Shown here: one piece after another, positions 11,300 through 63,405 of the stretch
How the letters are laid out: every line of letters starts with the position of its first letter
Position numbering within the stretch: position 1 is the first letter of the stretch
Source: a virus
Length of the DNA stretch: 64,000 bases
Strand: one strand, 5' to 3'
Virus record (IMG/VR): IMGVR_UViG_3300016665_000824
Location: 70,297-134,296 of that record
The notes under the pieces: model-generated
Told to the model about the DNA's origin: nothing
What the model saw: the letters and a program-made list of their open reading frames with translations, nothing else
Database searches by the model: none
Made by a program: the position numbers and the translations under genes

Positions 11300-11755
11300 A
11301 TGTCTAACTCTAGTTCTGCCACAAAATTGGCGATCGCAAGATTAAAAGGATCTGACCTGCCTATTTTTGTTCCAGTTTCAGTCTCTGAGAAAGTCGCAAC
11401 CCTAGTCAGGGAGTGTATTTTACAGTCCGACAGTTTAAAGATATTAAAAGTTACTACTACAGTTTACAACGAGCTTACTAAGCATTTAAAGCAGTACGAA
11501 AAGCCAAAATATACCATTCCTCAGTATCTTTTGATGCTCCTATATACGGTTTCTACTACTTCAGAATTGATCGAAAAACACAACAAGGGTTTAATTTCAG
11601 ATGACGAGTTTATTAACTGTATCAAAAACAACAAAAACGCAAACGGGACTAAAACCTCCCGCAAAATGGGTCGGAAGAAAGCAAGCGTTGATGCCAGCGA
11701 TCGCGCAGTACTTCCCCGCGAGGTTCACAAAAGAACCAGTTCCAAGGTTTCTTGA
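11300..11755 (+). CDS. hypothetical protein (3' end uncertain; overlaps MTase gene in another frame)
   Basis: 151-aa ORF; last ~40 codons look non-coding and overlap the Dam-like ORF. Confidence 0.3.
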   Translation: MSNSSSATKLAIARLKGSDLPIFVPVSVSEKVATLVRECILQSDSLKILKVTTTVYNELTKHLKQYEKPKYTIPQYLLMLLYTVSTTSELIEKHNKGLISDDEFINCIKNNKNANGTKTSRKMGRKKASVDASDRAVLPREVHKRTSSKVS

Positions 11756-12518
11756 TTTCAAAAAGGGTGTCGGCAATTTCCACGACCCTTTCGTTGGTAC
11801 TGGTAGTGCATTTTTGTATTTTGCGGATGGATTTCGAGGCGATCGCAAGATTTTTATTAGTGACAGTAATCCTGAACTCATTAATATTTGGCTGTGCATT
11901 CAAGCCGATCCTCTAAGGCTTTTAAGATCCTTGCTTGAATACAAGCGCCCTGTATTTAACAGCGCCGAATCGTACTATCACGAAAGGCAGATCTTCAATC
12001 AGCAGTTTAAAGGTTCTTACGACTACGAGCTAGCAGCAAGAATGATCTACTTAATTCAGGCTGGTTTCAATAGCCTATGGAGGGTTAACAGCGACGGTGA
12101 AATGAACACGCCTTTTGGCTCTCAGAAGCAAATTGCCCTTCTTACCGAGAATGATTTGACCGCGCTTTCGGTTCTCCTTCAAAAAGCGACAATCAAACAT
12201 CAGCCTTTTGAAGAGTCGCTAAAAGATGTACAACCCAATGATGTCGTCTATCTCGACCCGCCATACATTGAAGTCAAAAAGAATTCCTTCAATAAATACA
12301 CCACAAAAGGTTTTAGCAGAGAGCAGCAGATACTCCTCCGCCAAGAAGCCGATCGCCTGCACGATCTAGGCGCTTATGTATACGCCAGTAATAGCGATAC
12401 CCCCTTGAGTCGCGAAATTTGGTCGGGCTGGAAAATCGCAGAACTGACGAGATCGGGCTGCATGAACTCAGATGCAACCAAGCGTCAACGGGTTGGAGAG
12501 TTGTTATTTTATAAATAA
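11601..12518 (+). CDS. N6-adenine DNA methyltransferase, Dam family (D12 class)
   Basis: KWVGRK (cf. KWAGGK), FVGTGSAF SAM-binding motif, and DPPY catalytic motif (VVYLDPPYIE) in the translation. Confidence 0.8.
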   Translation: MTSLLTVSKTTKTQTGLKPPAKWVGRKQALMPAIAQYFPARFTKEPVPRFLDFKKGVGNFHDPFVGTGSAFLYFADGFRGDRKIFISDSNPELINIWLCIQADPLRLLRSLLEYKRPVFNSAESYYHERQIFNQQFKGSYDYELAARMIYLIQAGFNSLWRVNSDGEMNTPFGSQKQIALLTENDLTALSVLLQKATIKHQPFEESLKDVQPNDVVYLDPPYIEVKKNSFNKYTTKGFSREQQILLRQEADRLHDLGAYVYASNSDTPLSREIWSGWKIAELTRSGCMNSDATKRQRVGELLFYK

Positions 12519-18806: not shown

Positions 18807-19170
18807 TTTTTAATCCGCAACGTAATTTTGTTGTGCTATTGTTGTAATCACCAAAGAAGCAAATGAGAGACCCACCTGCTAAAAATAAGCAAAAAATAAA
18901 AGAGCCAACCGCCAAGTCGCTCTTTCATTCTTTGAAAATGATTGTTTGTTTCACTTCAGTTTCGGTTGTTCCTTCCACCTCGTCGTTTACACGCCTTGGC
19001 TGTTTGTGTTCAACACGACACTAATTTCCTGAATACTCTAACACATGGCGATCGCTTTGTGAAGGGGAATTTACGGAATTGGTGAAAAAACTGGAAGACA
19101 AGTGGTTTCTTGGGAATCTCAAGAACGCTTTGGTTGTTTTTTACACTTTAGTTTCGTAGGAAATTTAGTT

Positions 19171-19701
19171 ATGCTCTCAAGCGAAGAATACATACGCGAC
19201 AGACAAGACTTCGGTTGCTGGGAAGCCCGTATATTTTACTCCCCAGAATTAGATGCCGTTGTTGCGGCAGGTTTTATGGATGGGTTGATCTTCAACAAGG
19301 AAGAACTCTTCCAGCTAGGCTCATTACTCCTTGATGCCTCAATTAACGTTTCGGGTAAAGACATCTGCCACCTCAATAATCGGACATCGGCGAGAGGTCG
19401 TTCTGACAAGGATTTTTGGCTACAGCGCAAGAATAGATCTGGACTCGTGTATCTAATCAAGGCGATCGGGACTAACTACTACAAAATTGGTAGAACAAAA
19501 GATATTGAGACTAGATTAGAGACCCTGCAAAAGTCATCTCCATTCGACCTCTCGCTGATTCTTGCCATAGAAACATCAGACTCTTTGGCTCTAGAGAGGT
19601 ACTTCCACGATAAGTACAATGATTGTCGAGTTAGGGGTGAGTGGTTTGAGCTAGATGAGTATGCGATCGCTGAATTTATGAGCTACGAGGAGGTCGCGTG
19701 A
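19171..19701 (+). CDS. T5orf172-domain protein (GIY-YIG-like nuclease fold)
   Basis: C-terminal GLVYLIKAIGTNYYKIGRTKDIETRLETLQ ... ERYFHDKY...GEWFEL matches the T5orf172 pattern; start set at first ATG (ORF track starts at GTG 19102). Confidence 0.55.
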   Translation: MLSSEEYIRDRQDFGCWEARIFYSPELDAVVAAGFMDGLIFNKEELFQLGSLLLDASINVSGKDICHLNNRTSARGRSDKDFWLQRKNRSGLVYLIKAIGTNYYKIGRTKDIETRLETLQKSSPFDLSLILAIETSDSLALERYFHDKYNDCRVRGEWFELDEYAIAEFMSYEEVA

Positions 19702-22681: not shown

Positions 22682-23263
22682 GTGGGCAAAAACACACAAA
22701 ATTACAACAAAACTATGCAAGAAGAAATCTCACAACAGGAAATCGCTGCGATCGCAGCCGCAAAACTGAAAAGAATGCAGCGATCGCAACAACAAGAGCC
22801 GATAACGAAGGTCGAGCCAAAAACTCCAAGTCCCGCACCAGCAAAACAGTCAAAATCAGCAACAAACAGCTACTGGAACAAACCTCAAAGCAGCATCGAC
22901 ATCGTGAAAAACCCCAAGCACGTTGCCGATATTTACACCATGACCCCGTGGATACCCCAGCCACAGGTAGATGATATCTGCGCGATCGCCGAAAGACCCT
23001 ACGGCGACTGGATAGACCTCGAAGCGCAGCATATCGAAGGCAAGTGGGATAGGCAAAGATTCATTGAGTCAGCCTATAACTGGCCTTTCCGCGCCAAGAT
23101 GCGATGTGTTGAAATTTCTGAGGACGGACTGATGGCAACAGTATCCGTCTCAGGAGTCCGCAAACGATTACCACTAGTGTGTTTATGGGAGATGAATGAA
23201 ATAGTTGACACTATGACTAATAGTGAGTATGATGAATCTTGGTTTCAGGTAAGACAATTATGA
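22682..23263 (+). CDS. hypothetical protein
   Basis: 193-aa ORF; its 3' end contains an internal promoter-like element. Confidence 0.4.
   Translation: MGKNTQNYNKTMQEEISQQEIAAIAAAKLKRMQRSQQQEPITKVEPKTPSPAPAKQSKSATNSYWNKPQSSIDIVKNPKHVADIYTMTPWIPQPQVDDICAIAERPYGDWIDLEAQHIEGKWDRQRFIESAYNWPFRAKMRCVEISEDGLMATVSVSGVRKRLPLVCLWEMNEIVDTMTNSEYDESWFQVRQL
23205..23233 (+). promoter_or_regulatory. sigma70-type promoter (TTGACA-N17-TATGAT)
   Basis: Canonical -35 and -10 hexamers with 17-nt spacer about 27 nt upstream of ATG 23260. Confidence 0.45.
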
Positions 23264-23574
23264 CAAAGACTTTAATCTGTAGAGAGATTAAGTGCCTGTA
23301 TTTCGACGTTTCAGACCCAATGAGTTCTGGTTGTAAATTCTACGAAAGCGCTCGTCAATGTCACCTACTGTCTGGGATGCTTTCTACTGAAAAGACAGCA
23401 CTGGCGACTGACTACGAAATAATTGCTGAAGATTTGTATACGGCTGAAGACCTGATCAGGGTTGAAAACGATTTTTACATTAAATGTTCTGAAAAGTATT
23501 TACGCGATTGTGAGCTTCAGGGGCTTACACCTGAACCCGTAAGAGAAAATGTTCGAGCATGGTTTCGTAGATGA
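23260..23574 (+). CDS. hypothetical Cys-containing protein
   Basis: ORF 23239..23574; start at ATG 23260 downstream of promoter. Confidence 0.4.
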   Translation: MTKTLICREIKCLYFDVSDPMSSGCKFYESARQCHLLSGMLSTEKTALATDYEIIAEDLYTAEDLIRVENDFYIKCSEKYLRDCELQGLTPEPVRENVRAWFRR

Positions 23575-23661
23575 CTCCAGCAACTAAAGCAAGATTCACA
23601 AATAGGCGATCGCCTTCTCTGCCTCGTTTTTTAACATTTTGTGGCAGTTAAAAGAAAATGT

Positions 23662-23690
23662 TTGACAGTATGCCTAGTAGTGTGTATGAT
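23662..23690 (+). promoter_or_regulatory. sigma70-type promoter (TTGACA-N17-TATGAT), second copy
   Basis: Same hexamers and spacing as 23205-23233; about 80% identical 50-bp context; 26 nt upstream of ATG 23716. Confidence 0.45.
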
Positions 23691-23715
23691 GGTATTTAGT
23701 TTCAGGTAAAACAAT

Positions 23716-24234
23716 ATGACGAATAGCTTGGCTGTGACCTACCAATCGCTCCCACAGAAAGAACAGCTTGAGATACTAGCAGGAGTATCACACCTTATGA
23801 TAAAGGTAATGGCAGGTAAAATCCCAACAACAGAAGAGATGGACTTGGCTTCAAAAGCCCAGACCCATCCAAGCCTATTTTTAAAATGCTTCTCTGCCGA
23901 ACTTATGGGAGAGGAGTGGAGACCAAAGCTATTGCCTCAAGGCGGAGAAGGGTATATTATTCGCTGGAAATCCGATGAATACGAAGAGGTAGAGACCGAC
24001 TCCTATCCCTTTAAAAAGAGGGTTTACAAAGAAGAGGGCAATGGACTTGAAATCCAAAGCTACGAGCAGGCGATCGCCAATTGTGAATTTCTAAATAAGC
24101 AATACCCAGAGAGGACTTACTGGCACTTCTGGGTAAACCAAGACATCCTCAACAACGCAGAAAGCGAGGGTCTTCAACTCATAGACACTGTTGCTCAGCA
24201 TCTCTTTGAGGCTCTATCACAGGCTCATGGTTAG
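23716..24234 (+). CDS. hypothetical protein
   Basis: 172-aa ORF downstream of promoter copy 2. Confidence 0.4.
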   Translation: MTNSLAVTYQSLPQKEQLEILAGVSHLMIKVMAGKIPTTEEMDLASKAQTHPSLFLKCFSAELMGEEWRPKLLPQGGEGYIIRWKSDEYEEVETDSYPFKKRVYKEEGNGLEIQSYEQAIANCEFLNKQYPERTYWHFWVNQDILNNAESEGLQLIDTVAQHLFEALSQAHG

Positions 24235-24237
24235 TTT

Positions 24238-24528
24238 ATGACCCCAGAAACTAGAGCGCGATTCAAAGAATGGGCGATCGCCTACTGGAAGAAAAATCCA
24301 AAGTTACTGAAGCCACCCGATGACTTTCTCACGCAAGGACAGCAGTTGGCGATCGCTATCTACCATGCCATTCCCGCCGATGGGAAGTTTATTAAAGCTG
24401 ATGCGATCGCTACTAAGCTCAAACGCAAAACCAGACAAATAGAAGAGATTCTGGGGCTAATCAAAGAGCCGTGGCATCTCAAGTCAAGTAAAAACAACAA
24501 GGAAGGAGGATATACGAGAAATGAGTGA
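24238..24528 (+). CDS. hypothetical protein
   Basis: 96-aa ORF. Confidence 0.35.
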   Translation: MTPETRARFKEWAIAYWKKNPKLLKPPDDFLTQGQQLAIAIYHAIPADGKFIKADAIATKLKRKTRQIEEILGLIKEPWHLKSSKNNKEGGYTRNE

Positions 24529-24793
24529 CACAGTTGGTTTGATTTTTGGTAAGGAAGATAGCAGGACAGAGCAGGAAATCTCTGAGCTTGCGGAGGTCGT
24601 AAAAGCGGCTGGAATTAAGAGAAACCCTGCCATGTTTGCAAGATTTATTTACACACTCGACAAGACAAAAACCTGTCACCCGTCGATTGACCGTGAAGCC
24701 TTTCTGCTAACACTTCAAGAAGTATGGGAAGAGAAGGGACTCCAAGGACTTTCTCTCGCTGAAGAAATATATCAAAGAGGTTTTACAAGATGA
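24521..24793 (+). CDS. hypothetical protein
   Basis: 90-aa ORF. Confidence 0.35.
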   Translation: MSDTVGLIFGKEDSRTEQEISELAEVVKAAGIKRNPAMFARFIYTLDKTKTCHPSIDREAFLLTLQEVWEEKGLQGLSLAEEIYQRGFTR

Positions 24794-25527
24794 TTGAAAG
24801 GCAAGTTAAACTGCTGGTTCTAGACAAAGACGGTACACTCGTTCGCCCCAAATCTGGCAATACCTTCGTCCAGCACCCCGAAGATCAGGAGCTAATCGAA
24901 GGAGTGGCTGAAGCTATTCAGAGGTATGTTGCTGATGGATGGCAGTTGGCGATCGCGTCAAATCAGGGTGGATGCGAAGTGCGATGGTGTCACCCCGCCG
25001 AATTACCTGTAGGTAGTTACTGCAATGTAGATAACATTGCCATCAAGGTTGAATACCTTCAAGACACTGGTGAGTTTATACTCGTAAATGGGCATCACCC
25101 ACTACCAAAAACTAGGTTTGCGAAGTTCCAATACAAGACTCTCGGCATAGCGATCGCAGAGATGCAGTATGCGATGAAGCTGATCGGCATTCAGTATCAT
25201 GGTCTATTCTGTCCAGACATGCAAGGGAATGAATGCTACATGACTTCGGACTTTGCTGCTCCGCCATTACACAAGGTTGATAGATACAAACACTTAATAG
25301 GCTCGTTCCGTAAGCCCAGTGGTGGAATGTTGCTAGCATTAAAGCAGCACTTTGAAACACATCTTGATGATGTTGATCGGCTGCTCATGATCGGCGATCG
25401 TCCCGAAGATTTGGGATCGGCTCAAGCCGCAGGATTCGATTTTGTGTGGGCAGAAGACTGGCGAAATAACGAACTAGACAAAGTTCTGCCCTACAGGAGC
25501 GAAGAATGGATCGCTCTGAACTCCTAA
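24790..25527 (+). CDS. HAD-superfamily (subfamily IIIA-like) phosphatase
   Basis: Motif I LDKDGTL, motif II ASNQGG, conserved Lys in FRKPSGGML, motif IV MIGDRPED; same fold as polynucleotide 3'-phosphatases and GmhB. Confidence 0.6.
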   Translation: MIERQVKLLVLDKDGTLVRPKSGNTFVQHPEDQELIEGVAEAIQRYVADGWQLAIASNQGGCEVRWCHPAELPVGSYCNVDNIAIKVEYLQDTGEFILVNGHHPLPKTRFAKFQYKTLGIAIAEMQYAMKLIGIQYHGLFCPDMQGNECYMTSDFAAPPLHKVDRYKHLIGSFRKPSGGMLLALKQHFETHLDDVDRLLMIGDRPEDLGSAQAAGFDFVWAEDWRNNELDKVLPYRSEEWIALNS

Positions 25528-25805
25528 CTCGCATCCAAGTCCAGCGAATGTGGCTAGAGGACATCCGTGGCAAGTCTCTAGCTCCTCAGTTGGAGATTTG
25601 GAAGAACAAATACCTTGCCGCAAATAATCTCACGCATCTGGATGCTCAGGGGCTGGAGCAACTGCTTAAGGCTCTTGAGTCTATGACTAAGGCTACGGTG
25701 AGTAACGCCGAGGAATTGGATAGTCAGATGCGCGAGAGGATTAAGAGTGGCGACTACTCGATTCGATTTGTTGAAAAGATTGTTGAAGATGATGAATATT
25801 TTTAG
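25506..25805 (+). CDS. hypothetical protein
   Basis: 99-aa ORF; 3' end carries 29-bp repeat R1. Confidence 0.35.
   Translation: MDRSELLTRIQVQRMWLEDIRGKSLAPQLEIWKNKYLAANNLTHLDAQGLEQLLKALESMTKATVSNAEELDSQMRERIKSGDYSIRFVEKIVEDDEYF
25776..25804. repeat. 29-bp direct repeat R1 copy a (aagattgttgaagatgatgaatattttta)
   Basis: Identical copy at 26321-26349. Confidence 0.7.
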
Positions 25806-25824
25806 GAGGAGGTAAACCCCAACC

Positions 25825-26040
25825 ATGCGAAACGCCTACTTAACACTTTTTGTGATCAACACCCGTTCAGGACTCGCAGTTAATTATTCAATCAATACCG
25901 CAGCCGACCAGAAGGAGGCTAGAGCCGATGCTCTACTACTCATCGATGAGAGATATCGAGGTCAAAATATTCAGGTTCTAGAAACATCTATTATTCCAAA
26001 CGAAGTTATCGATCAGGTTTATGAGTCTCGACACGAGTAA
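25825..26040 (+). CDS. hypothetical protein
   Basis: 71-aa ORF. Confidence 0.35.
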   Translation: MRNAYLTLFVINTRSGLAVNYSINTAADQKEARADALLLIDERYRGQNIQVLETSIIPNEVIDQVYESRHE

Positions 26041-26059
26041 ACTCGATCGCCACTTTTTC

Positions 26060-26088
26060 AGATCTGAATTACCACAAAAGCACAATGA
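26060..26088. repeat. 29-bp direct repeat R2 copy a (agatctgaattaccacaaaagcacaatga)
   Basis: Identical copy at 26801-26829; both include a start codon. Confidence 0.7.
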
Positions 26089-26318
26089 TTTTAGAGGCCT
26101 ATTATGAAACGTGGGTATCTCGCCCCATTCAAAAGAGAGCTAAAGGTCGAGCCACCTATAGTAAGCCGCAGTGGGAGCATACCTCAGACACAGAAGAAGA
26201 GGCGATCGCTCACAACAAGATGCTTTCGGCTTACTACCCCGACTGGAAGATTGAAATCAGGGCTGTCGAACAAAAACGAGAATACTGGGATGTCAAGACT
26301 GCGGCAGTTCGAGATTAA
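26085..26318 (+). CDS. hypothetical protein
   Basis: 77-aa ORF starting inside R2 copy a. Confidence 0.35.
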   Translation: MILEAYYETWVSRPIQKRAKGRATYSKPQWEHTSDTEEEAIAHNKMLSAYYPDWKIEIRAVEQKREYWDVKTAAVRD

Positions 26319-26320
26319 AG

Positions 26321-26349
26321 AAGATTGTTGAAGATGATGAATATTTTTA
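26321..26349. repeat. 29-bp direct repeat R1 copy b
   Basis: Identical to 25776-25804. Confidence 0.7.
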
Positions 26350-26359
26350 AGAGGTTAAT

Positions 26360-26851
26360 ATGGCAAGTGTCAAGCATTATTTAAGTTGCCCAGCTAAGCC
26401 CTACGAAGAAGGGATACCCTTATACTCCGATCGCCTGAGAGAATGGTTTCACGATATCGGTGATGTCTGGGAATACTACGAAGATCAGATCGGAGAAGAT
26501 GAGGATATTGATCTTGAATGGGCGGAAGCCAAGCAATCGCCTCAAGGTATTTGTGAAATGGCTCGTCTTTTCTTAGGTAGACCAGTTTATTTGCCGTGGG
26601 CTGAGATTCCTGAATTTGATCTACCTGATGGTGTTGACGATATCTCGGAAATACTGCCGCCAAGCCACGAGATCAACATAAAACTTGCCGAGTTAAACAA
26701 GCTTATCGAAGAAACAAAGCTGGTTGTTTGCTACGAGGAGTCTAGCTACCGCCCAGATCCAGAAACCTTGGACTTTAAGTGCGCGATCGTCGCTTTTTTT
26801 AGATCTGAATTACCACAAAAGCACAATGAAAGCTCGACAGTTCGAGATTAA
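26360..26851 (+). CDS. hypothetical acidic protein
   Basis: 163-aa ORF; 3' end runs through R2 copy b. Confidence 0.35.
   Translation: MASVKHYLSCPAKPYEEGIPLYSDRLREWFHDIGDVWEYYEDQIGEDEDIDLEWAEAKQSPQGICEMARLFLGRPVYLPWAEIPEFDLPDGVDDISEILPPSHEINIKLAELNKLIEETKLVVCYEESSYRPDPETLDFKCAIVAFFRSELPQKHNESSTVRD
26801..26829. repeat. 29-bp direct repeat R2 copy b
   Basis: Identical to 26060-26088. Confidence 0.7.
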
Positions 26852-27080
26852 ATTTAGAAACCATCCAGAGTGCGATCGCCTAGTCGAAGCCACCAGTCAT
26901 GCCAAAGCCAAGATGAAGCTCGCCTACGAGTTGGTTGAGGCGGGAGTATTTAATACTTTTGGAGAGGCTTTACTGGCGATCGCCACCTGCCGAGTCTTAC
27001 AGCCAATGAAGCGAGGGAAACCCGAAGGGTGGTATCGGGTGAACCCTAAACGAAAAACAACAAGGAACAAAAAGCAGTGA
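26826..27080 (+). CDS. hypothetical basic protein
   Basis: ORF 26724..27080; start moved to ATG 26826 inside R2 copy b (MKARQFEIKF...). Confidence 0.35.
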   Translation: MKARQFEIKFRNHPECDRLVEATSHAKAKMKLAYELVEAGVFNTFGEALLAIATCRVLQPMKRGKPEGWYRVNPKRKTTRNKKQ

Positions 27081-27643
27081 TTGACAAAACAAGATTAGAA
27101 ATAGCGAACAAGGTCTTAGCAGTACTCAGTGAGTCTTATCGTAAGACTGAGTTTGTAGTTAGCGATCGCAACCGACTTTACCTGAACTGGTTCGATTATT
27201 ACGGCAAGGCATATAGTCGTCCTTGGGCAACAAGATGTGGCTCGGCGTATCCAAGCTGGAGCGACAAACTGTCTTGCGGCGGCACGATGATGACGGCGAT
27301 CGCGCAGTTGGCTTTATGGGTTCGCGGATTGCCTTGCTACCCCATTCAGACTTGGGAGTATTGGTGCGGAGAGACGGTTGGAATGAGAGGTGGGGAGAAA
27401 ATTCTTCCACTCTTAAGGGACAGTGGCTGTTATCCCGATGGACTTAGTTGTGCTTTTTGTGGGGCTAGGGATGTCGAGAGGGATTGGTATTGGTTCTCGC
27501 CTCACCCTAAGCACTCTGGGTTTGGATGCCAGCGCCCAGAATGCCAGCCAATTATAGATCTTAGGAATAGTTTGGACGTAAAACAACAAAATCGCGTCAA
27601 AAGAATTTTATCCTCGCAACGTATCCCTGCTTCCGTAAAATAG
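27077..27643 (+). CDS. hypothetical Cys/Trp-rich protein
   Basis: 188 aa with many Cys and Trp (CGSAYPSW, CAFCG, CQRPEC); GTG start. Confidence 0.4.
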   Translation: MIDKTRLEIANKVLAVLSESYRKTEFVVSDRNRLYLNWFDYYGKAYSRPWATRCGSAYPSWSDKLSCGGTMMTAIAQLALWVRGLPCYPIQTWEYWCGETVGMRGGEKILPLLRDSGCYPDGLSCAFCGARDVERDWYWFSPHPKHSGFGCQRPECQPIIDLRNSLDVKQQNRVKRILSSQRIPASVK

Positions 27644-27790
27644 TTTGATCGGTAACGTAAATTTGTGGCAATATTAACAGAAGCGTTTCAAGAACAATGA
27701 ACAAACTAATTGCCTATCTGGTAAACAAAATCGAATCTGCTTACCACACTGCAAGATTCCTGCTATCTATACTTAAATTGGAGTTTCCCC

Positions 27791-28105
27791 ATGCTAGACC
27801 CCATAGAGCTACAGGTCAGTATTTTCGAGATGGAGTTCACGCAGGCGATCGCGCACCAATCCCTCCCAGAAGCAAGAAAGGCAGTAGCCGATTATTTGCA
27901 GCTACTGGAGCACAAGAAGGACTCGACAATCAGGCTGAGACCCCAAGTGACATCCTTGGTTTCTGGGCTGGAGACCCTCTCGATAGATTTACTAATTCAA
28001 TCAACCGAAAGTCGGGAGGAACTCAAGGCGATCGCGGTAAGGATTTGCAGGATGTTGCTGAAACTAAACACGCTGCTCAAGGAAGCGGTGAGCGGGATCT
28101 GCTAA
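27791..28105 (+). CDS. hypothetical helical protein
   Basis: 104-aa ORF; overlapping 212-aa ORF 27697..28335 in another frame looks non-coding through this stretch. Confidence 0.35.
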   Translation: MLDPIELQVSIFEMEFTQAIAHQSLPEARKAVADYLQLLEHKKDSTIRLRPQVTSLVSGLETLSIDLLIQSTESREELKAIAVRICRMLLKLNTLLKEAVSGIC

Positions 28106-28331
28106 CCCAGCAGGACATTATCCTAGACAAGATGCGTCGGAAGCAATCGGAATTTGAAGACTACTACGTTTTTAGCACTCACGACATAGTGACCCTATGT
28201 GAGGACAGTCATCTGGACTGGGACTTGGCTTTTGACCAGCTAATAGCTTTAAACAAGAGGAATCTAGTTGCTATAAATCCGACATATTGCGATCGCACAG
28301 GCAAATTTATCGGATTGTTGTGGGGTTTAAA

Positions 28332-29276
28332 ATGAGTAAAACCGTAGCCACGATGTATTCTGGCTTTGGCGGAGTTGATCAGGGTTTCGTTTTGGCAGGG
28401 TATACGCCAGTCTTTGCGATCGATAACAATCCTGATGCAGTAGCGGTTTATATCGAGAATTTTGGCAACCACTGTCTAGAGAAGGACGTTTGTGAGTTTG
28501 ATTATTCAAGAGTTAAAGCAGATCACCTCCATGCTTCTCCAAGCTGCAAAGAGTTTAGTAGCGCCAATCACCGTAGTAGCGAAACCGATCTCGATATTCG
28601 ATGCGCCCAAGCTACGGTTAAGGCGATCGCACAGATAAACCCTCAAACATTTTCCCTCGAAAATGTAAAGCAGTACGCTAAGTCTAAGTCTTTTGATTTG
28701 ATTAGGCGATCGCTACGAGAAATGGGCTACGCCTGCAACGTAACCGTAGTCAACGCGAAGGATTTCGGTGTATCCCAATCACGAGAAAGGCTAATTCTTC
28801 GAGCATGGGTTAAATCCCGCAAACGCCCTAGACCTTTGGCGTTGTACAAACAGTGTTTAACAATGGGGTGGCATGACGCGATCGCCGATTTAATCCCCAC
28901 TCTCAAACCACAACCATTGAATAATTGGCAGCTAGCCTCTCTTGAGGAGCAGGGTATAGACCCCACCAACCTAACTGCACTGGTTAGCAAAGATGGGTCT
29001 CGCAAGAAAAAAGGCTTTAAAAATACTTTTGCCTTGGTAATCCCCTCGTCCAAGCCTTGCCCAACCCTCAAGGCAATGGGGCATAATCAGCACTGTCAGC
29101 AGTATTCGATTGTGGTTAACGGTGTTGGTTATCGGATTTCTACCGAGGCGATCGCGAGACTAATGAGCTTTCCCGACTCATTCAAATTCTCAGGAGTGAA
29201 TTATAAAGACTGTATGGGTTTAGGTAATGCAGTACCGCCATTATTGGTAAGAGCGATCGCGGAAAGTTTTGCTTAA
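28332..29276 (+). CDS. DNA (cytosine-5)-methyltransferase
   Basis: Motif I YSGFGG, motif IV PSCKEFS (Pro-Cys catalytic dipeptide), ENV, QSRER, GNAV; start at ATG 28332. Confidence 0.8.
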   Translation: MSKTVATMYSGFGGVDQGFVLAGYTPVFAIDNNPDAVAVYIENFGNHCLEKDVCEFDYSRVKADHLHASPSCKEFSSANHRSSETDLDIRCAQATVKAIAQINPQTFSLENVKQYAKSKSFDLIRRSLREMGYACNVTVVNAKDFGVSQSRERLILRAWVKSRKRPRPLALYKQCLTMGWHDAIADLIPTLKPQPLNNWQLASLEEQGIDPTNLTALVSKDGSRKKKGFKNTFALVIPSSKPCPTLKAMGHNQHCQQYSIVVNGVGYRISTEAIARLMSFPDSFKFSGVNYKDCMGLGNAVPPLLVRAIAESFA

Positions 29277-29309
29277 AAATCCATAAAACTACCACAAAAT
29301 CGAGTTATC

Positions 29310-29579
29310 ATGAAGGAATCTGATTTAGACAATGCGATCACGCAGGCAGAACAGTTTTTAATTCTCGCAAAAGAGCTAAAAGCTGGCTTTCAAGCTCAGA
29401 AGAAGGTGATCGCCGAGGCAGAAGCCGAGGTGATTCGCGAAAATCTATCTGAGACATACGCGGAAAATAAAATCTTTTTCGCCCGTTACAACAACAAGAT
29501 GGAGGGAACGAGACTAATGGGTGCAGTAAAGCATTCCTGTGTTACCCTCTCCCTCTTTTTAGCAAAGCTGAGGAAATAA
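29310..29579 (+). CDS. hypothetical protein
   Basis: 89-aa ORF. Confidence 0.35.
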   Translation: MKESDLDNAITQAEQFLILAKELKAGFQAQKKVIAEAEAEVIRENLSETYAENKIFFARYNNKMEGTRLMGAVKHSCVTLSLFLAKLRK

Positions 29580-59033: not shown

Positions 59034-59575
59034 CGCAGATGTGGAATACCCTTCTTGAACAAGACCCAAGGTTCAAGATGGTAGTGGACTTAGCAACCCC
59101 ACGAGGTAATCGCAAAAATGTGATGCCCCTCACCCGCGAGAATGTTCGGATTGCCTTCGCCGCATTTAATGACGGTATTGCTGAGCAGTTAACCGACTTG
59201 GCGATCGCCTGTTTTAACCGTTCCCACTCTCCTCGATTCGTCACCACCGATGAAGGTGATGAATTTATTGAAACTAGCGAAGAAGAAATCTATTATCAAT
59301 GGGAGCCTGAAGCGGCTTTGAGGATCTGCAACCAACGCCTTGATGGGTTTCTAATTGAGATCAGCGATCGTGGCACTATTACCAAATTTAAGTACGAGCG
59401 ACCACCTTTCCTGTATCCTCACGGCTGGGCCTATCAACCAACCATGCCCGAAGTTCCCGACGATCCTGAATGCTGCACGTTATTTGATCGAAGAAGCCAT
59501 GCTCGTCGCCGTCGAAGATTTGGGAATGTCGGCGACAAGTATGACCTGCATGGTAAAGCGTGGAAGAAGGGTTAA
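58997..59575 (+). CDS. hypothetical protein
   Basis: 192-aa ORF. Confidence 0.35.
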   Translation: MDEEQQPEHRTITQMWNTLLEQDPRFKMVVDLATPRGNRKNVMPLTRENVRIAFAAFNDGIAEQLTDLAIACFNRSHSPRFVTTDEGDEFIETSEEEIYYQWEPEAALRICNQRLDGFLIEISDRGTITKFKYERPPFLYPHGWAYQPTMPEVPDDPECCTLFDRRSHARRRRRFGNVGDKYDLHGKAWKKG

Positions 59576-59823
59576 GGCAGTATCCTGTCCAGCAGGTAGA
59601 TAATTAAGTGCATAGCCTTAACATTCCTGTTCGCGCAGTATATCTTCAGGCGAGTATGCAGTGAAGCAGGTAGATCAACCGTGATCCGCACAGTCCGCTC
59701 CTTCTCCCCTTCCACGGGCAACCCATCCAAAATATTTCCCGCAGTATTGTTTGTGTTCAGATCGGAATTAGCCTTGATAAAATTCTGCTCAATTGTTTCG
59801 GTAAGAGGTATACGCTTAGACAC
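59572..59823 (-). CDS. ParG-like ribbon-helix-helix protein (candidate centromere-binding partner of ParA)
   Basis: C-terminal RITVDLPASLHTRLKIYCANRNVKAMHLIIYLLDRIL is RHH-like; immediately downstream of and overlapping parA. Confidence 0.45.
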   Translation of the reverse strand: MSKRIPLTETIEQNFIKANSDLNTNNTAGNILDGLPVEGEKERTVRITVDLPASLHTRLKIYCANRNVKAMHLIIYLLDRILP

Positions 59824-61050: not shown

Positions 61051-61250
61051 AAATATTAAAAAGCGATCGCCAATAGGCTATGTGATTTTTACGATTCTAA
61101 ACTTGATATCTCGATATGTCCGACGCAAAGATGACAGCTCCACCTTGGCTTCTTTCTTGTCGTACTGATACTTATTTTGTCTAACCCATACGTTAGGCTG
61201 CTCAAACTTTGTTACTAACTTTTCAATTGCGTACATCGTTGTAACTGGTT

Positions 61251-61440
61251 TAAAAAGCGATCGCTATCCTGAAGAGAGGTGGATAGGCGATCGCAAAATG
61301 TACATCATGAAAAATCCTCTCCCCACAATCTTAACTTGGATTCGCATTAAAAAGCGATCGCTATCCTGAAGAGAGGTGGACAGGCGATCGCTAAAATGAT
61401 TATCTAACATGACCTCTCCCCACAATTTTAACTTGATTTT
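61251..61440. repeat. two tandem ~97-bp repeats, each with a pair of HIP1 sites
   Basis: taaaaagcgatcgctatcctgaagagaggtgga(t/c)aggcgatcgc ... cctctccccacaat(c/t)ttaacttg at 61251 and 61348; ORF-free region upstream of the par operon. Confidence 0.6.
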
Positions 61441-61594
61441 GTGGCAAAAAAATACCGACGTCCTGTGGAGTGGTGGACGACGGGCTATGTAATCTCGATG
61501 GTCTGGAAATATTCTACGCGGTTTTGTGGCGCTTTTATTATCGAATCCCGCATTTAATCGATAATAACGAGAAAATTATTCCTAGATATTATCA

Positions 61595-62068: not shown

Positions 62069-62892
62069 ATACGTTTTAAATCTCAAGAAAGCTCTCATTT
62101 GTTAACAGTAACTGGAAGATTTCTTTGTAAAAGACCTAATAAAAAAGACCTAGCTCGATCCGTGATCCAGAGATCCAAAATCTCCACGTCCAAAACAGTT
62201 AACTTTTTGAGTGATTCAGGGGGTTGCTATTGGGAATTTTCGCGCGTGTGCATAGAAATAGCAAATTTGACCGTCAAAAAAATAAGCTTTATAGTGTCAT
62301 CACTTAGCTGTGTGACAGGCATCTAAGTAAGGGCTTTACAGTTCTCTAGTCACTTATATATGGCTAGCAAGCGTAAACAAAGGAATAGTAAAGACAGCTA
62401 ACAAGCTGTTTGTAACTAGGGTAGAAATTCGGTTAAGTAGCTACGAAGAAACATAGCTACTTTGAACTTAAGAAAGAGTTTTTTGTTTGCGGGTTTTAAT
62501 GCCTCACTTGCAAGGTAGATAGGATGAACAAAGAGATTAAACAGTGAATTAACACGGTATAGGCTGTAACTAGTAGATAAAGCACTCTAAGCTCAAACAA
62601 CGATCGCACTAAGTTAAACGGTTACTTAGTAAAGCGATCGCACTCATTCCCATTGCTTACGAGATAGGCAAAAAGTGAGGGAATAAAGCGATCGGCGATC
62701 GGGTAGTTCGATCCCGTCATGGGTAAGGACTACAGCACTTAGGAATAGCTCTAAAGTAGCTAGGGTTAAGTGAGTTAGTAGCTATTTGCGAGTAATAGCT
62801 TAAGCGTAGGTACTAATCACTTCATACGCAAATTAGATCAAAGAGATAAACCGTTAAAACTATTCACACTATATTTTTTGAGGGTTAAAACC

Positions 62893-63405
62893 ATGTCTAA
62901 TCTTAATACTGAGTTTTCCGAATTGATTGCGATCGCTGATTTTCACGGTGTAAGCATTGATGAAGCAGTTGCGCTAAAAACTGCTAGCGAAAGCGCTAGT
63001 AAAAAGCTTACTCGTAATCTTTCTACAGCGATCGCTGATCGTCTTGTTGCGACAATCGAAAATGATTGGAGCGCTACTAACTCTAATTATCTTGATGTGC
63101 TAACTCGTAGAATGCAACGCGCTAACCGTAAAGAACGCTTAGCCGATCCTGTTGCAAAACTTGAAGCACCCGTTGAAGTAGTAGTTGAAGCACCCGTTGA
63201 GACTGAAAAAGTTACCGTTGAAGCACCCGTTGAAGTAGTAGTTGAAGCACCCGTTGAGACAGCTATCGACAGATCACCAACGCAGGCACGCCGCAAACGT
63301 GGCGCTACAGTTGCAACGGTTGAAGCACTCGCACCCGTTGAGACTGAAAAAGTTACCGTTGAAGCACCCGTTGCGAGAAAAACTAGATCACGTAGAGCTA
63401 AGTAA
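62893..63405 (+). CDS. protein with tandem EAPVE(V/T) peptide repeats
   Basis: ORF 62878..63405; start at ATG 62893; nucleotide tandem repeats at about 63166-63380 encode repeated EAPVEVVVEAPVETEKVTV units. Confidence 0.45.
   Translation: MSNLNTEFSELIAIADFHGVSIDEAVALKTASESASKKLTRNLSTAIADRLVATIENDWSATNSNYLDVLTRRMQRANRKERLADPVAKLEAPVEVVVEAPVETEKVTVEAPVEVVVEAPVETAIDRSPTQARRKRGATVATVEALAPVETEKVTVEAPVARKTRSRRAK

What the first reader, a model, noticed from the sequence alone, without database searches (positions are those of the whole stretch)
25776..26852. Interleaved identical direct repeats at gene boundaries: a module-shuffling hotspot
Three repeat pairs are interleaved within 1.1 kb: R1 (29 bp; 25776-25804 and 26321-26349), R2 (29 bp; 26060-26088 and 26801-26829, each including a start codon and an ACCACAAAA motif) and R3 (15 bp cagttcgagattaaa; 26305-26319 and 26838-26852). 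They coincide with 3' ends and starts of small genes. Repeats of this kind can mediate cassette exchange, deletion or duplication of small genes.
Basis: seen in the sequence. Interest (0 to 1): 0.5.

Follow-up and report, generated by a model that had tools for sequence, protein, structure and literature searches.

The report
Recombination scar in cyanophage variable region
The three repeat pairs are real and mark where two alternative versions of a highly variable small-gene region of an uncultured cyanophage were joined head to tail, which is a clear but ordinary example of how phage genomes gain and swap small genes.

Summary
R1, R2 and R3 sit at the stated coordinates, each has exactly two copies in the 64-kb window, and R1 and R2 are far beyond chance. 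Their order is 1-2-3-1-2-3, which is tandem rather than truly interleaved.

The window is a phage rich in HIP1 (GCGATCGC), so a cyanophage.
- R1 is the last 10 codons of conserved gene A plus the ribosome-binding site of the next gene.
- R2 is a conserved non-coding element plus a start codon.
- R3 is the 5' end of gene E.

In 11 distinct relatives the layout is A | 0-3 variable genes | HIP1-R2 | C/E/F/TnpB | G. The A-to-G interval is 277-2041 bp and holds at least 15 gene families. R2 occurs once in each.

Only this lineage has the doubled form. It reads as [A-B-R2-C-E(codons 1-10)] joined to [A(last ~10 codons)-D-R2-E-F-G], with at most 1 nt of microhomology at 26319/26320. Each half has a collinear relative: L024 for the left, L011 and L002 for the right.

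Independent relics of the A tail occur in three other genomes. Two of those joints lie exactly at a HIP1 site.

"Module-shuffling hotspot" is supported. The repeats are mainly footprints of recombination, not proven mediators of it. This is a known kind of phage mosaicism. Interest is low to moderate.

The parts
25506..25805 (+). Gene A (99 aa), the conserved left anchor of the variable region. It is a small four-helix protein with a disordered acidic C-terminal tail that ends in an invariant YF.
   Evidence: ORF. 29 homologues at 70-100% identity. Alignment. AlphaFold model with pLDDT 72 and a tail below 50. No PDB fold match.
25776..25809 (+). R1a: the last 10 codons of A (KIVEDDEYF, stop) with the stop codon embedded in the AGGAGG ribosome-binding site of the next gene (B).
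   Evidence: Aligned with the A-to-next-gene junctions of relatives.
25825..26040 (+). Gene B (71 aa), a variable cassette. It is also present after A in L024 and L001.
   Evidence: dN/dS is about 0.12-0.15.
26044..26088 (+). R2a: a degenerate HIP1 (CGATCGCC), then the conserved core TTTTTCAGATCTGAATTACCACAAAA, then GCACA and the ATG of gene C.
26085..26318 (+). Gene C (77 aa), a cassette that naturally sits between R2 and E. L017 has the same R2-C-E arrangement, with C at 68% amino-acid identity.
   Evidence: dN 0.20 versus dS 1.85.
26290..26319 (+). Relic of the 5' end of a first copy of gene E (ATG TCA AGA CTG CGG CAG TTC GAG ATT AAA = MSRLRQFEIK). It overlaps the 3' end of C, as the intact E does in L017. 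It contains R3a (26302-26319).
   Evidence: Sequence. The L017 C/E overlap. Family f0 membership of the 26104-26331 frame.
26319..26320 (+). The novel non-homologous joint between E codon 10 and about codon 90 of A, with at most 1 nt of microhomology. It was inferred by comparison with the L011 allele of the A tail (GTTGAGAAGATTGTT).
26320..26354 (+). R1b: a relic of the last ~10 codons of a second copy of A plus the ribosome-binding site of D (AAGAGG, one mismatch from AGGAGG). It is no longer part of any A reading frame.
26360..26851 (+). Gene D (163 aa here, 137-144 aa in relatives), a cassette that follows A directly in L002, L008, L011 and L013. In this lineage its stop codon is lost, so the frame runs on through R2b and R3b.
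   Evidence: dN/dS is about 0.06 against L017.
26784..26829 (+). R2b: the second copy of the HIP1-like sequence plus the conserved core plus the ATG (here the ATG of E).
26826..27080 (+). Gene E (84 aa), intact copy. R3b (26835-26852) is its codons 4-9 (RQFEIK).
   Evidence: Homologues follow R2 in L001, L013, L014, L016 and L021.
27077..27643 (+). Gene F (188 aa), a cassette of the second variable slot. It is present in L002, L008 and L023, absent in L001, L013-L021, and truncated in L011.
27697..28335 (+). Gene G (212 aa), the conserved right anchor. It is followed by a C5 cytosine methyltransferase (28287-29276).

Best explanation
The window is part of an uncultured, HIP1-rich cyanophage. 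The finding lies in a hyperplastic region of small early-type genes between conserved gene A and conserved gene G.

In this phage family the region has a fixed frame: A with its tail and the next gene's ribosome-binding site (R1), then 0-3 variable genes, then a stop, a HIP1 site and a conserved 26-nt element with a start codon (R2), then C and/or E, F or an insertion, then G.

The doubled repeats arose in one step. Two related genomes carried different cargo: one A-B-R2-C-E..., the other A-D-R2-E-F-G. They recombined unequally and non-homologously. Codon 10 of E in the first genome was joined to about codon 90 of A in the second. The product keeps B, C and D together and carries three landmarks twice: the A tail (R1), the R2 element (R2) and the E start (R3).

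What is shown: the anatomy, the joint, and the existence of both parental arrangements in relatives.

What is inferred:
- The event happened between co-infecting genomes.
- R1b persists because it carries the ribosome-binding site of D.
- R2 is a cis-acting element (a 12-bp palindrome TTCAGATCTGAA plus an A/C-rich leader without a Shine-Dalgarno sequence). It also serves as a conserved linker where unrelated cassettes meet.
- The 29-35-nt identities could now support three alternative deletions of 545, 741 and 533 bp. Each would regenerate an arrangement seen in nature: A-D-R2-E, A-B-R2-E and A-B-R2-C-E.
For: - **Phage identity.** Portal, large terminase, primase, DnaB and sliding clamp are present. 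There are 186 HIP1 sites in 64 kb.
- **Repeat anatomy.**
- **Relatives.** L002, L008-10 and L011 have A-R1-D-R2 with no B or C. L024 has A-R1-B-R2-C and is collinear with the window at 93.5% nt. L017 has D-R2-C-E, with the E start overlapping the C end. This identifies R3a as an E relic.
- **Source of the right half.** Window 26319-26839 is 95% identical to L011, while gene A is only 88% identical. With the L011 allele, the A-derived sequence begins at 26319/26320.
- **R2 copy number.** R2 is single-copy in all 11 distinct relatives, and only the window and L007 break the canonical gene order.
- **R2 conservation.** The R2 core has a mean pairwise identity of 88%, against 79% for gene A and 29-40% for its flanks.
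- **Independent A-tail relics.** They lie in front of other genes in L001 (before X), L014 (before f12) and L017 (before D).
- **Real genes.** All cassettes have dN much lower than dS.
- **Real structure.** The doubled structure is seen in two samples and two assemblers.
- **Precedent.** The same kind of scar is described in mycobacteriophage Island3 gp67/gp68 (PMC3029335).
Against: - The left parent is documented only up to the start of C, because the L024 contig ends there. The C-E part rests on the more distant L017.
- The two carriers of the doubled structure (window and L007) are essentially one strain, so the age and stability of the arrangement are unknown.
- No reads were available to look for deletion junctions.
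- No single-strand-annealing recombinase was found among the ORFs scanned. Only RusA, SSB and a T5orf172 nuclease-like protein turned up.
- The function of R2 is unproven. It has no sigma-70-like promoter, no terminator, no RNA structure or covariation, and no Rfam match.
Confidence: 0.78

Rival explanations
1. Intragenomic tandem duplication. A single ancestral genome duplicated the segment from the A tail to the E start. The two copies then lost or replaced different genes: D lost from copy 1, B and C lost from copy 2.
For: The 1-2-3-1-2-3 order and the near identity of the copies (33/34, 34/35, 17/18) are what a recent tandem duplication would give.
Against: It needs at least four events instead of one. 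No relative carries B, D and C together in one unit. The R2b-E junction (R2 fused directly to E) matches L002 and L011, while the R2a-C junction matches L024 and L017. The R1b-D-R2b block is closer to L011 (95%) than gene A is (88%), which indicates two sources.
Confidence: 0.1
2. Dedicated shuffling elements. R1 and R2 are recombination cassettes, comparable to the PeSL elements of T4-type phages or to integron attC sites. They actively excise and insert the small genes they flank, for example as mini-circles.
For: R2 is a conserved island between unrelated genes on both sides in every relative. A-tail relics recur in four lineages. PeSLs are known to do this in T4-type phages (PMC2839356).
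Against: R2 occurs once per genome in relatives, so it cannot support intragenomic excision there. It has no sigma-70 promoter and no stem-loop. The actual novel joints are non-homologous (26319/26320) or lie at 8-bp HIP1 sites, not inside R1 or R2. The deletions in L002 and L011 also have arbitrary end points inside E and F. No integrase was found among the ORFs scanned.
Confidence: 0.1
3. Assembly chimera. A metagenome assembler stitched two co-occurring phage variants together through shared short sequences.
For: Both parental-type arrangements exist in nature, and the source is a metagenome.
Against: The R3a|R1b joint is a new sequence present in neither parental type, so it cannot be produced by collapsing repeats. 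The exact repeats are only 29 nt. An independent assembly of another run (L007, Logan) has the identical structure.
Confidence: 0.02

Closest known systems
Duplicated 3'-end scars at inserted genes in mosaic phage genomes, for example mycobacteriophage Island3 gene 68, whose last ~50 bp repeat the end of upstream gene 67 (Pope et al. 2011, PMC3029335). This belongs to the illegitimate-recombination model of phage mosaicism.
   Same: A short copy of the 3' end of the upstream gene reappears after an inserted small gene. Relatives lack the insert. The junctions lie at gene boundaries. As in that paper, both an intermolecular gain and an intramolecular loss are conceivable.
   Different: Here three landmarks are doubled rather than one. 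Both parental arrangements are recovered in relatives. The same A-tail relic has arisen independently in at least three further genomes.
PeSL (promoter-early stem-loop) regulatory cassettes of T4-type phages (Arbiol et al. 2010, PMC2839356; Comeau et al. 2014, PMC4122927).
   Same: These are conserved intergenic motifs running from a stop codon to the next start codon. They flank ORFans in hyperplastic regions, and indels between close relatives coincide with them. R2 behaves in the same way as a conserved island between unrelated cassettes.
   Different: R2 has no sigma-70 consensus promoter and no stable stem-loop. It is single-copy in the region in relatives, whereas a T4-type genome carries about 50 PeSLs. 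The novel joints seen here are not inside the motif.
Boundary or 'linker' sequences of the modular theory of lambdoid phage evolution. This comparison rests on my own knowledge of Susskind and Botstein 1978 and Clark et al. 2001. The concept is cited in PMC3029335.
   Same: A short conserved sequence between non-homologous modules could serve as a homologous crossover point during co-infection.
   Different: This is a different phage group and a different sequence. The evidence for crossover inside R1 or R2 is only indirect: identity steps near R1 in the window versus L011.

Membership tests
Mosaic-junction scar from illegitimate (non-homologous) recombination between related phages | A novel joint with little or no homology between the joined sequences | tested here: met
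   E codon 10 is joined to about codon 90 of A at 26319/26320, with at most 1 nt shared.
Mosaic-junction scar from illegitimate (non-homologous) recombination between related phages | Each side of the joint is collinear with a different relative that lacks the other side | tested here: met
   The left side matches L024 (A-B-R2-C, 93.5% nt) and L017 (R2-C-E). The right side matches L011 and L002 (A-D-R2-E..., 94-95% nt).
Mosaic-junction scar from illegitimate (non-homologous) recombination between related phages | The joint lies at or near gene boundaries, so that flanking genes stay intact | tested here: met
   C, D and the second E are intact, and D keeps its ribosome-binding site in R1b. All cassettes have dN much lower than dS.
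PeSL regulatory cassettes (T4-type phages) | Sigma-70 consensus early promoter within the motif | tested here: not met
   The consensus scan found no promoter-like site at R2. The only site in 24500-28500 lies in R1a, and one site found is fewer than chance expectation (4.5).
PeSL regulatory cassettes (T4-type phages) | Stable stem-loop acting as terminator or attenuator | tested here: not met
   Folding z-scores were -0.45 to +1.4. The consensus fold had 4 invariant pairs at -2.7 kcal/mol and no covariation.
PeSL regulatory cassettes (T4-type phages) | Many copies per genome, concentrated in hyperplastic regions | tested here: not met
   There are two full copies in the window and one in each 5-12 kb locus of 11 relatives. 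Four weaker 12-mer relatives elsewhere in the window are partly inside genes.
PeSL regulatory cassettes (T4-type phages) | Differential ORFans between close relatives are flanked by the motif | tested here: met
   Eight different genes abut R2 on the left and C, E, F or G abut it on the right.
PeSL regulatory cassettes (T4-type phages) | Excised mini-circles carrying one chimeric motif | not testable with these tools
   This needs reads or PCR on phage DNA.
Integron-type gene cassettes | Tyrosine-recombinase integrase next to the array, and attC sites made of imperfect inverted repeats | tested here: not met
   No integrase turned up among about 50 ORFs scanned. R1 and R3 have no inverted symmetry, and R2 has only a 12-bp palindrome.
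Conserved boundary ('linker') sequence between exchangeable modules | A short sequence conserved across genomes while both flanks are non-homologous | tested here: met
   The R2 core has 88% mean pairwise identity in 11 genomes, against 29% and 40% for its flanks and 79% for gene A.
Conserved boundary ('linker') sequence between exchangeable modules | Crossovers demonstrably located inside the linker | tested here: inconclusive
   Identity between the window and L011 rises from about 80-88% in A to 94-100% in D, with the step near R1. The resolution is too low to place the crossover, and no crossover inside R2 was resolved.

The most novel reading that the evidence does not exclude
R2, the unit of stop codon, HIP1 and TTTTCAGATCTGAATTAMCACAAAA plus start codon, is a new kind of phage linker or regulatory cassette specific to this group of freshwater cyanophages. 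In this reading the host-type HIP1 palindromes, which are extremely dense in the phage (1 per 344 bp), act as ready-made 8-bp microhomologies, or as break sites, that channel cassette gain to gene boundaries. Two of the three independent A-tail relic joints that could be resolved (L001, L014) lie exactly on a HIP1 site shared by both parental sequences.
Probability: 0.2. Interest if true: 0.55.

Novelty: new member of a known kind. Interest (0 to 1): 0.3.

Why it matters
This is an unusually legible example of how phages accumulate small genes. The joint is resolved to the nucleotide. Both parental arrangements still exist in related genomes. Each of the three possible repeat-mediated deletions would recreate a natural variant.

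It also defines a hyperplastic region, and a strongly conserved non-coding element (R2), in a group of uncultured HIP1-rich cyanophages that is absent from the phage and plasmid reference collections searched.

It does not change what is known about phage mosaicism. If the HIP1 connection held up, it would give a concrete role in recombination to a cyanobacterial repeat whose function has long been debated.

Tried and rejected
- **Reference collections.** Searches of 24000-29500 against GenBank phages and PLSDB plasmids found nothing.
- **Cassette protein families.** Pfam and PHROGs gave no credible family for A, B, C, D, E, F or G.
- **Collection scans with gene A.** GTDB genomes gave nothing. 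JGI metagenomes gave only the contig already known as L002.
- **R2 pattern scans.** IMG/VR returned only the two known relatives. GTDB returned two unrelated chance hits.
- **R2 as promoter, terminator or structured RNA.** All negative: consensus scan, Rfam, single-sequence folds and the alignment fold.
- **HIP1 as a general boundary marker.** Rejected for the window as a whole: 9 of 186 HIP1 sites lie within 20 nt after a stop, against 4.5% expected.
- **R1 as a hyper-conserved part of A.** Rejected: the tail is 77-82% identical, the same as the rest of A.
- **A phage recombinase that would explain short-homology exchange.** Only RusA, SSB and a T5orf172-domain protein were found. No Erf, RecT, Rad52 or Sak4-type protein appeared among the ORFs scanned.
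- **Structure of A.** The model is a four-helix bundle with a disordered tail and has no significant PDB match.
- **A failed script.** A first fuzzy-regex scan timed out and was replaced by a Hamming scan.
Full report
**1. The observation**

- R1 (AAGATTGTTGAAGATGATGAATATTTTTA) occurs at 25776-25804 and 26321-26349.
- R2 (AGATCTGAATTACCACAAAAGCACAATGA) occurs at 26060-26088 and 26801-26829.
- For R1 and R2 there is no further match in the 64-kb window even with 3 mismatches, and none in 100 shuffles.
- R3 (CAGTTCGAGATTAAA) occurs at 26305-26319 and 26838-26852. By itself it is only marginally significant.

With one mismatch each, the pairs extend to 34, 35 and 18 nt. R2 extends to about 46 nt at 91% when the HIP1-like CGATCG upstream is included.

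The order along the DNA is R1a, R2a, R3a, R1b, R2b, R3b. This is two tandem units sharing three landmarks but carrying different cargo.

**2. Context**

The window carries a portal, large terminase, primase, DnaB helicase and sliding clamp. It also carries RusA, SSB, ThyX, dCTP deaminase, MazG, a Dam-like methyltransferase and a C5 methyltransferase. There are no tRNAs.

It holds 186 copies of the cyanobacterial HIP1 octamer GCGATCGC, one per 344 bp. For comparison, Synechocystis has one per 1131 bp (PMC6604393). The window is therefore a phage, or phage-like element, of a HIP1-rich cyanobacterium.

Its source is a 134-kb ENA metagenome contig. Nothing similar exists in the GenBank phage or PLSDB plasmid collections.

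The finding lies in a long run of small plus-strand genes:

| Gene | Coordinates | Note |
|---|---|---|
| HAD/PNK-type phosphatase | 24790-25527 | |
| A | 25506-25805 | |
| B | 25825-26040 | |
| C | 26085-26318 | |
| D | 26360-26851 | |
| E | 26826-27080 | |
| F | 27077-27643 | |
| G | 27697-28335 | |
| C5 methyltransferase | 28287-29276 | |

**3. What each repeat is**

- **R1a** is the last ten codons of A (KIVEDDEYF, stop), with the stop embedded in the AGGAGG ribosome-binding site of B.
- **R1b** is the same sequence lying just after the stop of C, outside any A frame. It supplies the (now AAGAGG) ribosome-binding site of D.
- **R2** is non-coding in relatives. It consists of a stop, a HIP1 site, the core TTTTCAGATCTGAATTAMCACAAAA, a few bases, and an ATG. 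R2a provides the ATG of C and R2b the ATG of E.
- **R3b** is codons 4-9 of E.
- **R3a** lies in a 30-nt stretch (26290-26319) that reads ATG TCA AGA CTG CGG CAG TTC GAG ATT AAA = MSRLRQFEIK. This is the start of a first copy of E overlapping the end of C, as the intact E does in relative L017.

**4. Relatives**

Gene A has 29 homologues at 70-100% identity. Contexts were recovered for 11 distinct genomes besides the window. They were mapped by tblastn, repeat scanning and ORF clustering.

| Genome | Arrangement |
|---|---|
| L024 | A, B, R2, C... (contig ends) |
| L002, L008-10 | A, D, R2, E with a 186-bp internal deletion, F, G |
| L011/12 | A, D, R2, deletion from E codon 5 to about F codon 168, G |
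| L001 | A, B, A-tail relic, X, R2, E, G |
| L013 | A, D, R2, E, TnpB, G |
| L014/15 | A, f11, D, A-tail relic, f12, R2, E, G |
| L016 | A, f5, D, f14, R2, E, G |
| L017 | A, f15, f5, decayed A-tail relic, D, R2, C, E, G |
| L018-20 | A, f17, R2, G |
| L021 | A, f18, f5, R2, E, G |
| L023 | A, f19, R2, F, G |

The A-to-G interval ranges from 277 to 2041 bp and contains at least 15 gene families. This is a hyperplastic region with a fixed frame:

A/R1 | slot 1 | HIP1-R2 | slot 2 (C, E, F, TnpB) | G

R2 is present exactly once in every relative. Its 26-nt core averages 88% pairwise identity. Gene A averages 79%, and the sequences flanking R2 average 29-40% because they are unrelated genes. B, C, D, E and A all have dN far below dS, so the cassettes are real genes.

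**5. Origin of the doubled repeats**

Only the window and L007 break the canonical order, with D lying to the right of an R2. L007 is essentially the same strain, 100% identical from 25716 to 26879.

- The left part, A-R1a-B-R2a-C, is collinear with L024 at 93.5% nt with no gaps. The C-E overlap is as in L017.
- The right part, R1b-D-R2b-E-F-G, is collinear with L011 and L002. Window 26319-26839 is 95% identical to L011, while A is only 88% identical.
- With the L011 allele of the A tail (GTTGAGAAGATTGTT), the A-derived sequence starts at 26319/26320. The E-derived sequence ends at 26319.

One non-homologous joint, with at most 1 nt of microhomology, therefore links E codon 10 of an A-B-R2-C-E genome to about codon 90 of A in an A-D-R2-E-F-G genome. 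This single event explains all three repeat pairs, their order and their spacing. It is an unequal, illegitimate exchange that retained the cargo of both parents.

An assembly chimera is excluded for three reasons. The joint sequence exists in neither parental type. The exact repeats are only 29 nt long. An independent assembly from another run shows the same structure.

**6. The same process elsewhere in the family**

A-tail relics with the ribosome-binding site also precede X in L001, f12 in L014/15 and D in L017.

In L001 and L014 the relic begins exactly at a (near-)HIP1 site. In L014, the stop and HIP1 after D continue as GCGATCGC-ATTTGTTGAAGAAATT, which is the sequence found inside gene A of L001 and L021. 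These two joints used the 8-bp palindrome as microhomology.

Other differences between relatives are plain illegitimate deletions with end points inside E and F.

A 94-nt patch in A holds 11 of the 14 substitutions between the window and L007 over 3.7 kb. Short-patch homologous exchange therefore also occurs in this population.

**7. How it most likely works**

*Shown:* the region is a hotspot of gene gain, loss and replacement, with R1 and R2 as its fixed boundaries. The window's repeats are the footprint of one heterologous fusion.

*Inferred:*
- (a) The fusion occurred between co-replicating related genomes.
- (b) The relics survive because they carry the translation start signals of the downstream gene.
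- (c) R2 is a cis-acting element kept wherever the two variable slots meet. Its 12-bp perfect palindrome TTCAGATCTGAA suggests a dimeric DNA-binding protein site. Its A/C-rich leader, which lacks a Shine-Dalgarno sequence, resembles other junctions in the family (HIP1 plus a CACCACAA-type leader).
- (d) Identities of 29-35 nt are near the lower limit for homologous recombination, by my own knowledge of minimal processing segments. They could still give three deletions: R1xR1 (545 bp, giving A-D-R2-E as in L002), R2xR2 (741 bp, giving A-B-R2-E as in L001) and R3xR3 (533 bp, giving A-B-R2-C-E as in L017). Each product is a viable natural architecture.

No direct evidence for such events could be obtained here.

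**8. Comparison with known systems**

*Duplicated gene-end scars.* The closest match is the kind of scar described at inserted genes in mycobacteriophages. Island3 gp68 repeats about 50 bp of the end of gp67 (PMC3029335). This sits within the general illegitimate-recombination view of phage mosaicism.

*PeSL cassettes of T4-type phages.* R2 resembles these in function: conserved stop-to-start intergenic motifs that flank ORFans in hyperplastic regions and coincide with indels (PMC2839356, PMC4122927). It is not a member of that family. It has no sigma-70 promoter, no stem-loop, and a single copy per region in relatives.

*Integron-type cassettes.* These are excluded. No integrase was found and there is no attC-like symmetry.

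*Classical boundary or linker sequences.* R2 meets the definition, being a conserved island between non-homologous modules. Crossovers inside it were not resolved.

**9. Verdict**

This is a new member of a known kind of feature.

The one thread with some novelty is the possible role of HIP1 palindromes and the R2 element in channelling joints to gene boundaries in HIP1-rich cyanophages. It rests on two joints, and a genome-wide test for HIP1 enrichment after stop codons was negative. I rate it as unlikely but not excluded.

Noticed in passing
window 1-64000: HIP1 (GCGATCGC) occurs 186 times, one per 344 bp. That is about three times denser than reported for Synechocystis 6803 (one per 1131 bp, PMC6604393). 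It is not enriched just after stop codons (9 of 186, against 4.5% expected).
   Followed up: partly
window 11601-12518 (+) and 28287-29276 (+): The phage encodes both a D12-class (Dam-like) N6-adenine methyltransferase and a C5 cytosine methyltransferase. These are the two activities that doubly methylate the CGATCG core of HIP1 in Synechocystis (PMC6604393). Relatives carry one of two unrelated-length C5 methyltransferase types at this position (about 315-330 aa or 425-486 aa).
   Followed up: no
window minus strand at 5031-5020, 14992-14981, 42826-42815, 59767-59756: The 12-mer TTCCGATCTGAA is one step from the R2 palindrome TTCAGATCTGAA and is followed by a YCACC(A)CAA-like sequence. It occurs four more times, always co-oriented with local genes. 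Two copies start right at a stop codon (TAG at 5035-5033, followed by a terminator-like hairpin; TAA at 42829-42827). Two lie inside ORFs (the primase, and an 83-aa ORF at 59572-59823 whose C-terminal sequence looks ribbon-helix-helix-like by eye; it was not run against any family library). About 0.02 copies are expected by chance. The meaning is unknown.
   Followed up: partly
window 26784-26851: Gene D has lost the stop codon that relatives have right after the HIP1 site (GCGATCGCCTAAGCCGC has become GCGATCGTCGC). Its frame runs 19 codons further through R2b and R3b and overlaps E by 26 nt.
   Followed up: partly
window 25622-25715 (gene A) versus L007: Eleven of the 14 substitutions between the window and its near-identical relative L007 over 23210-26879 cluster in 94 nt of gene A. 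This indicates a short gene-conversion or recombination patch.
   Followed up: partly
L013 5036-6217; also the contig without DNA: An IS605-family TnpB (OrfB_IS605 / Cas12f-like TNB) gene is inserted between E and G in one relative. This shows that a transposon-type element also uses this variable slot.
   Followed up: no
L002 5938-6003; L011 1501-1580: Relatives carry illegitimate deletions in the second slot. One is a 186-bp internal deletion of E, which leaves a 23-codon ORF. The other runs from E codon 5 to about F codon 168.
   Followed up: partly
window 25506-25805: Gene A is predicted as a four-helix protein with a disordered acidic C-terminal tail (EDDEYF) whose last two residues, YF, are invariant in 29 homologues. 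From my own knowledge, this recalls the acidic, aromatic-ended interaction tails of SSB and T7 replication proteins. The model had no PDB fold match.
   Followed up: partly
window 61219-61478 and 63149-63377: There are three copies of a 66-nt unit, starting 97 bp apart, containing HIP1 (61219-61478). There is also a short-period tandem repeat (12- and 57-nt spacing, GTTGAAGCACCC-type) inside ORF 62878-63405.
   Followed up: no
window 19102-19701 (+): A T5orf172 / MUG113 domain protein (GIY-YIG-related, nuclease-like) lies just upstream of the replication initiator and DnaB genes. Relatives carry CoiA-like nuclease or HNH genes between DnaB and gene A, so that interval is variable as well.
   Followed up: no
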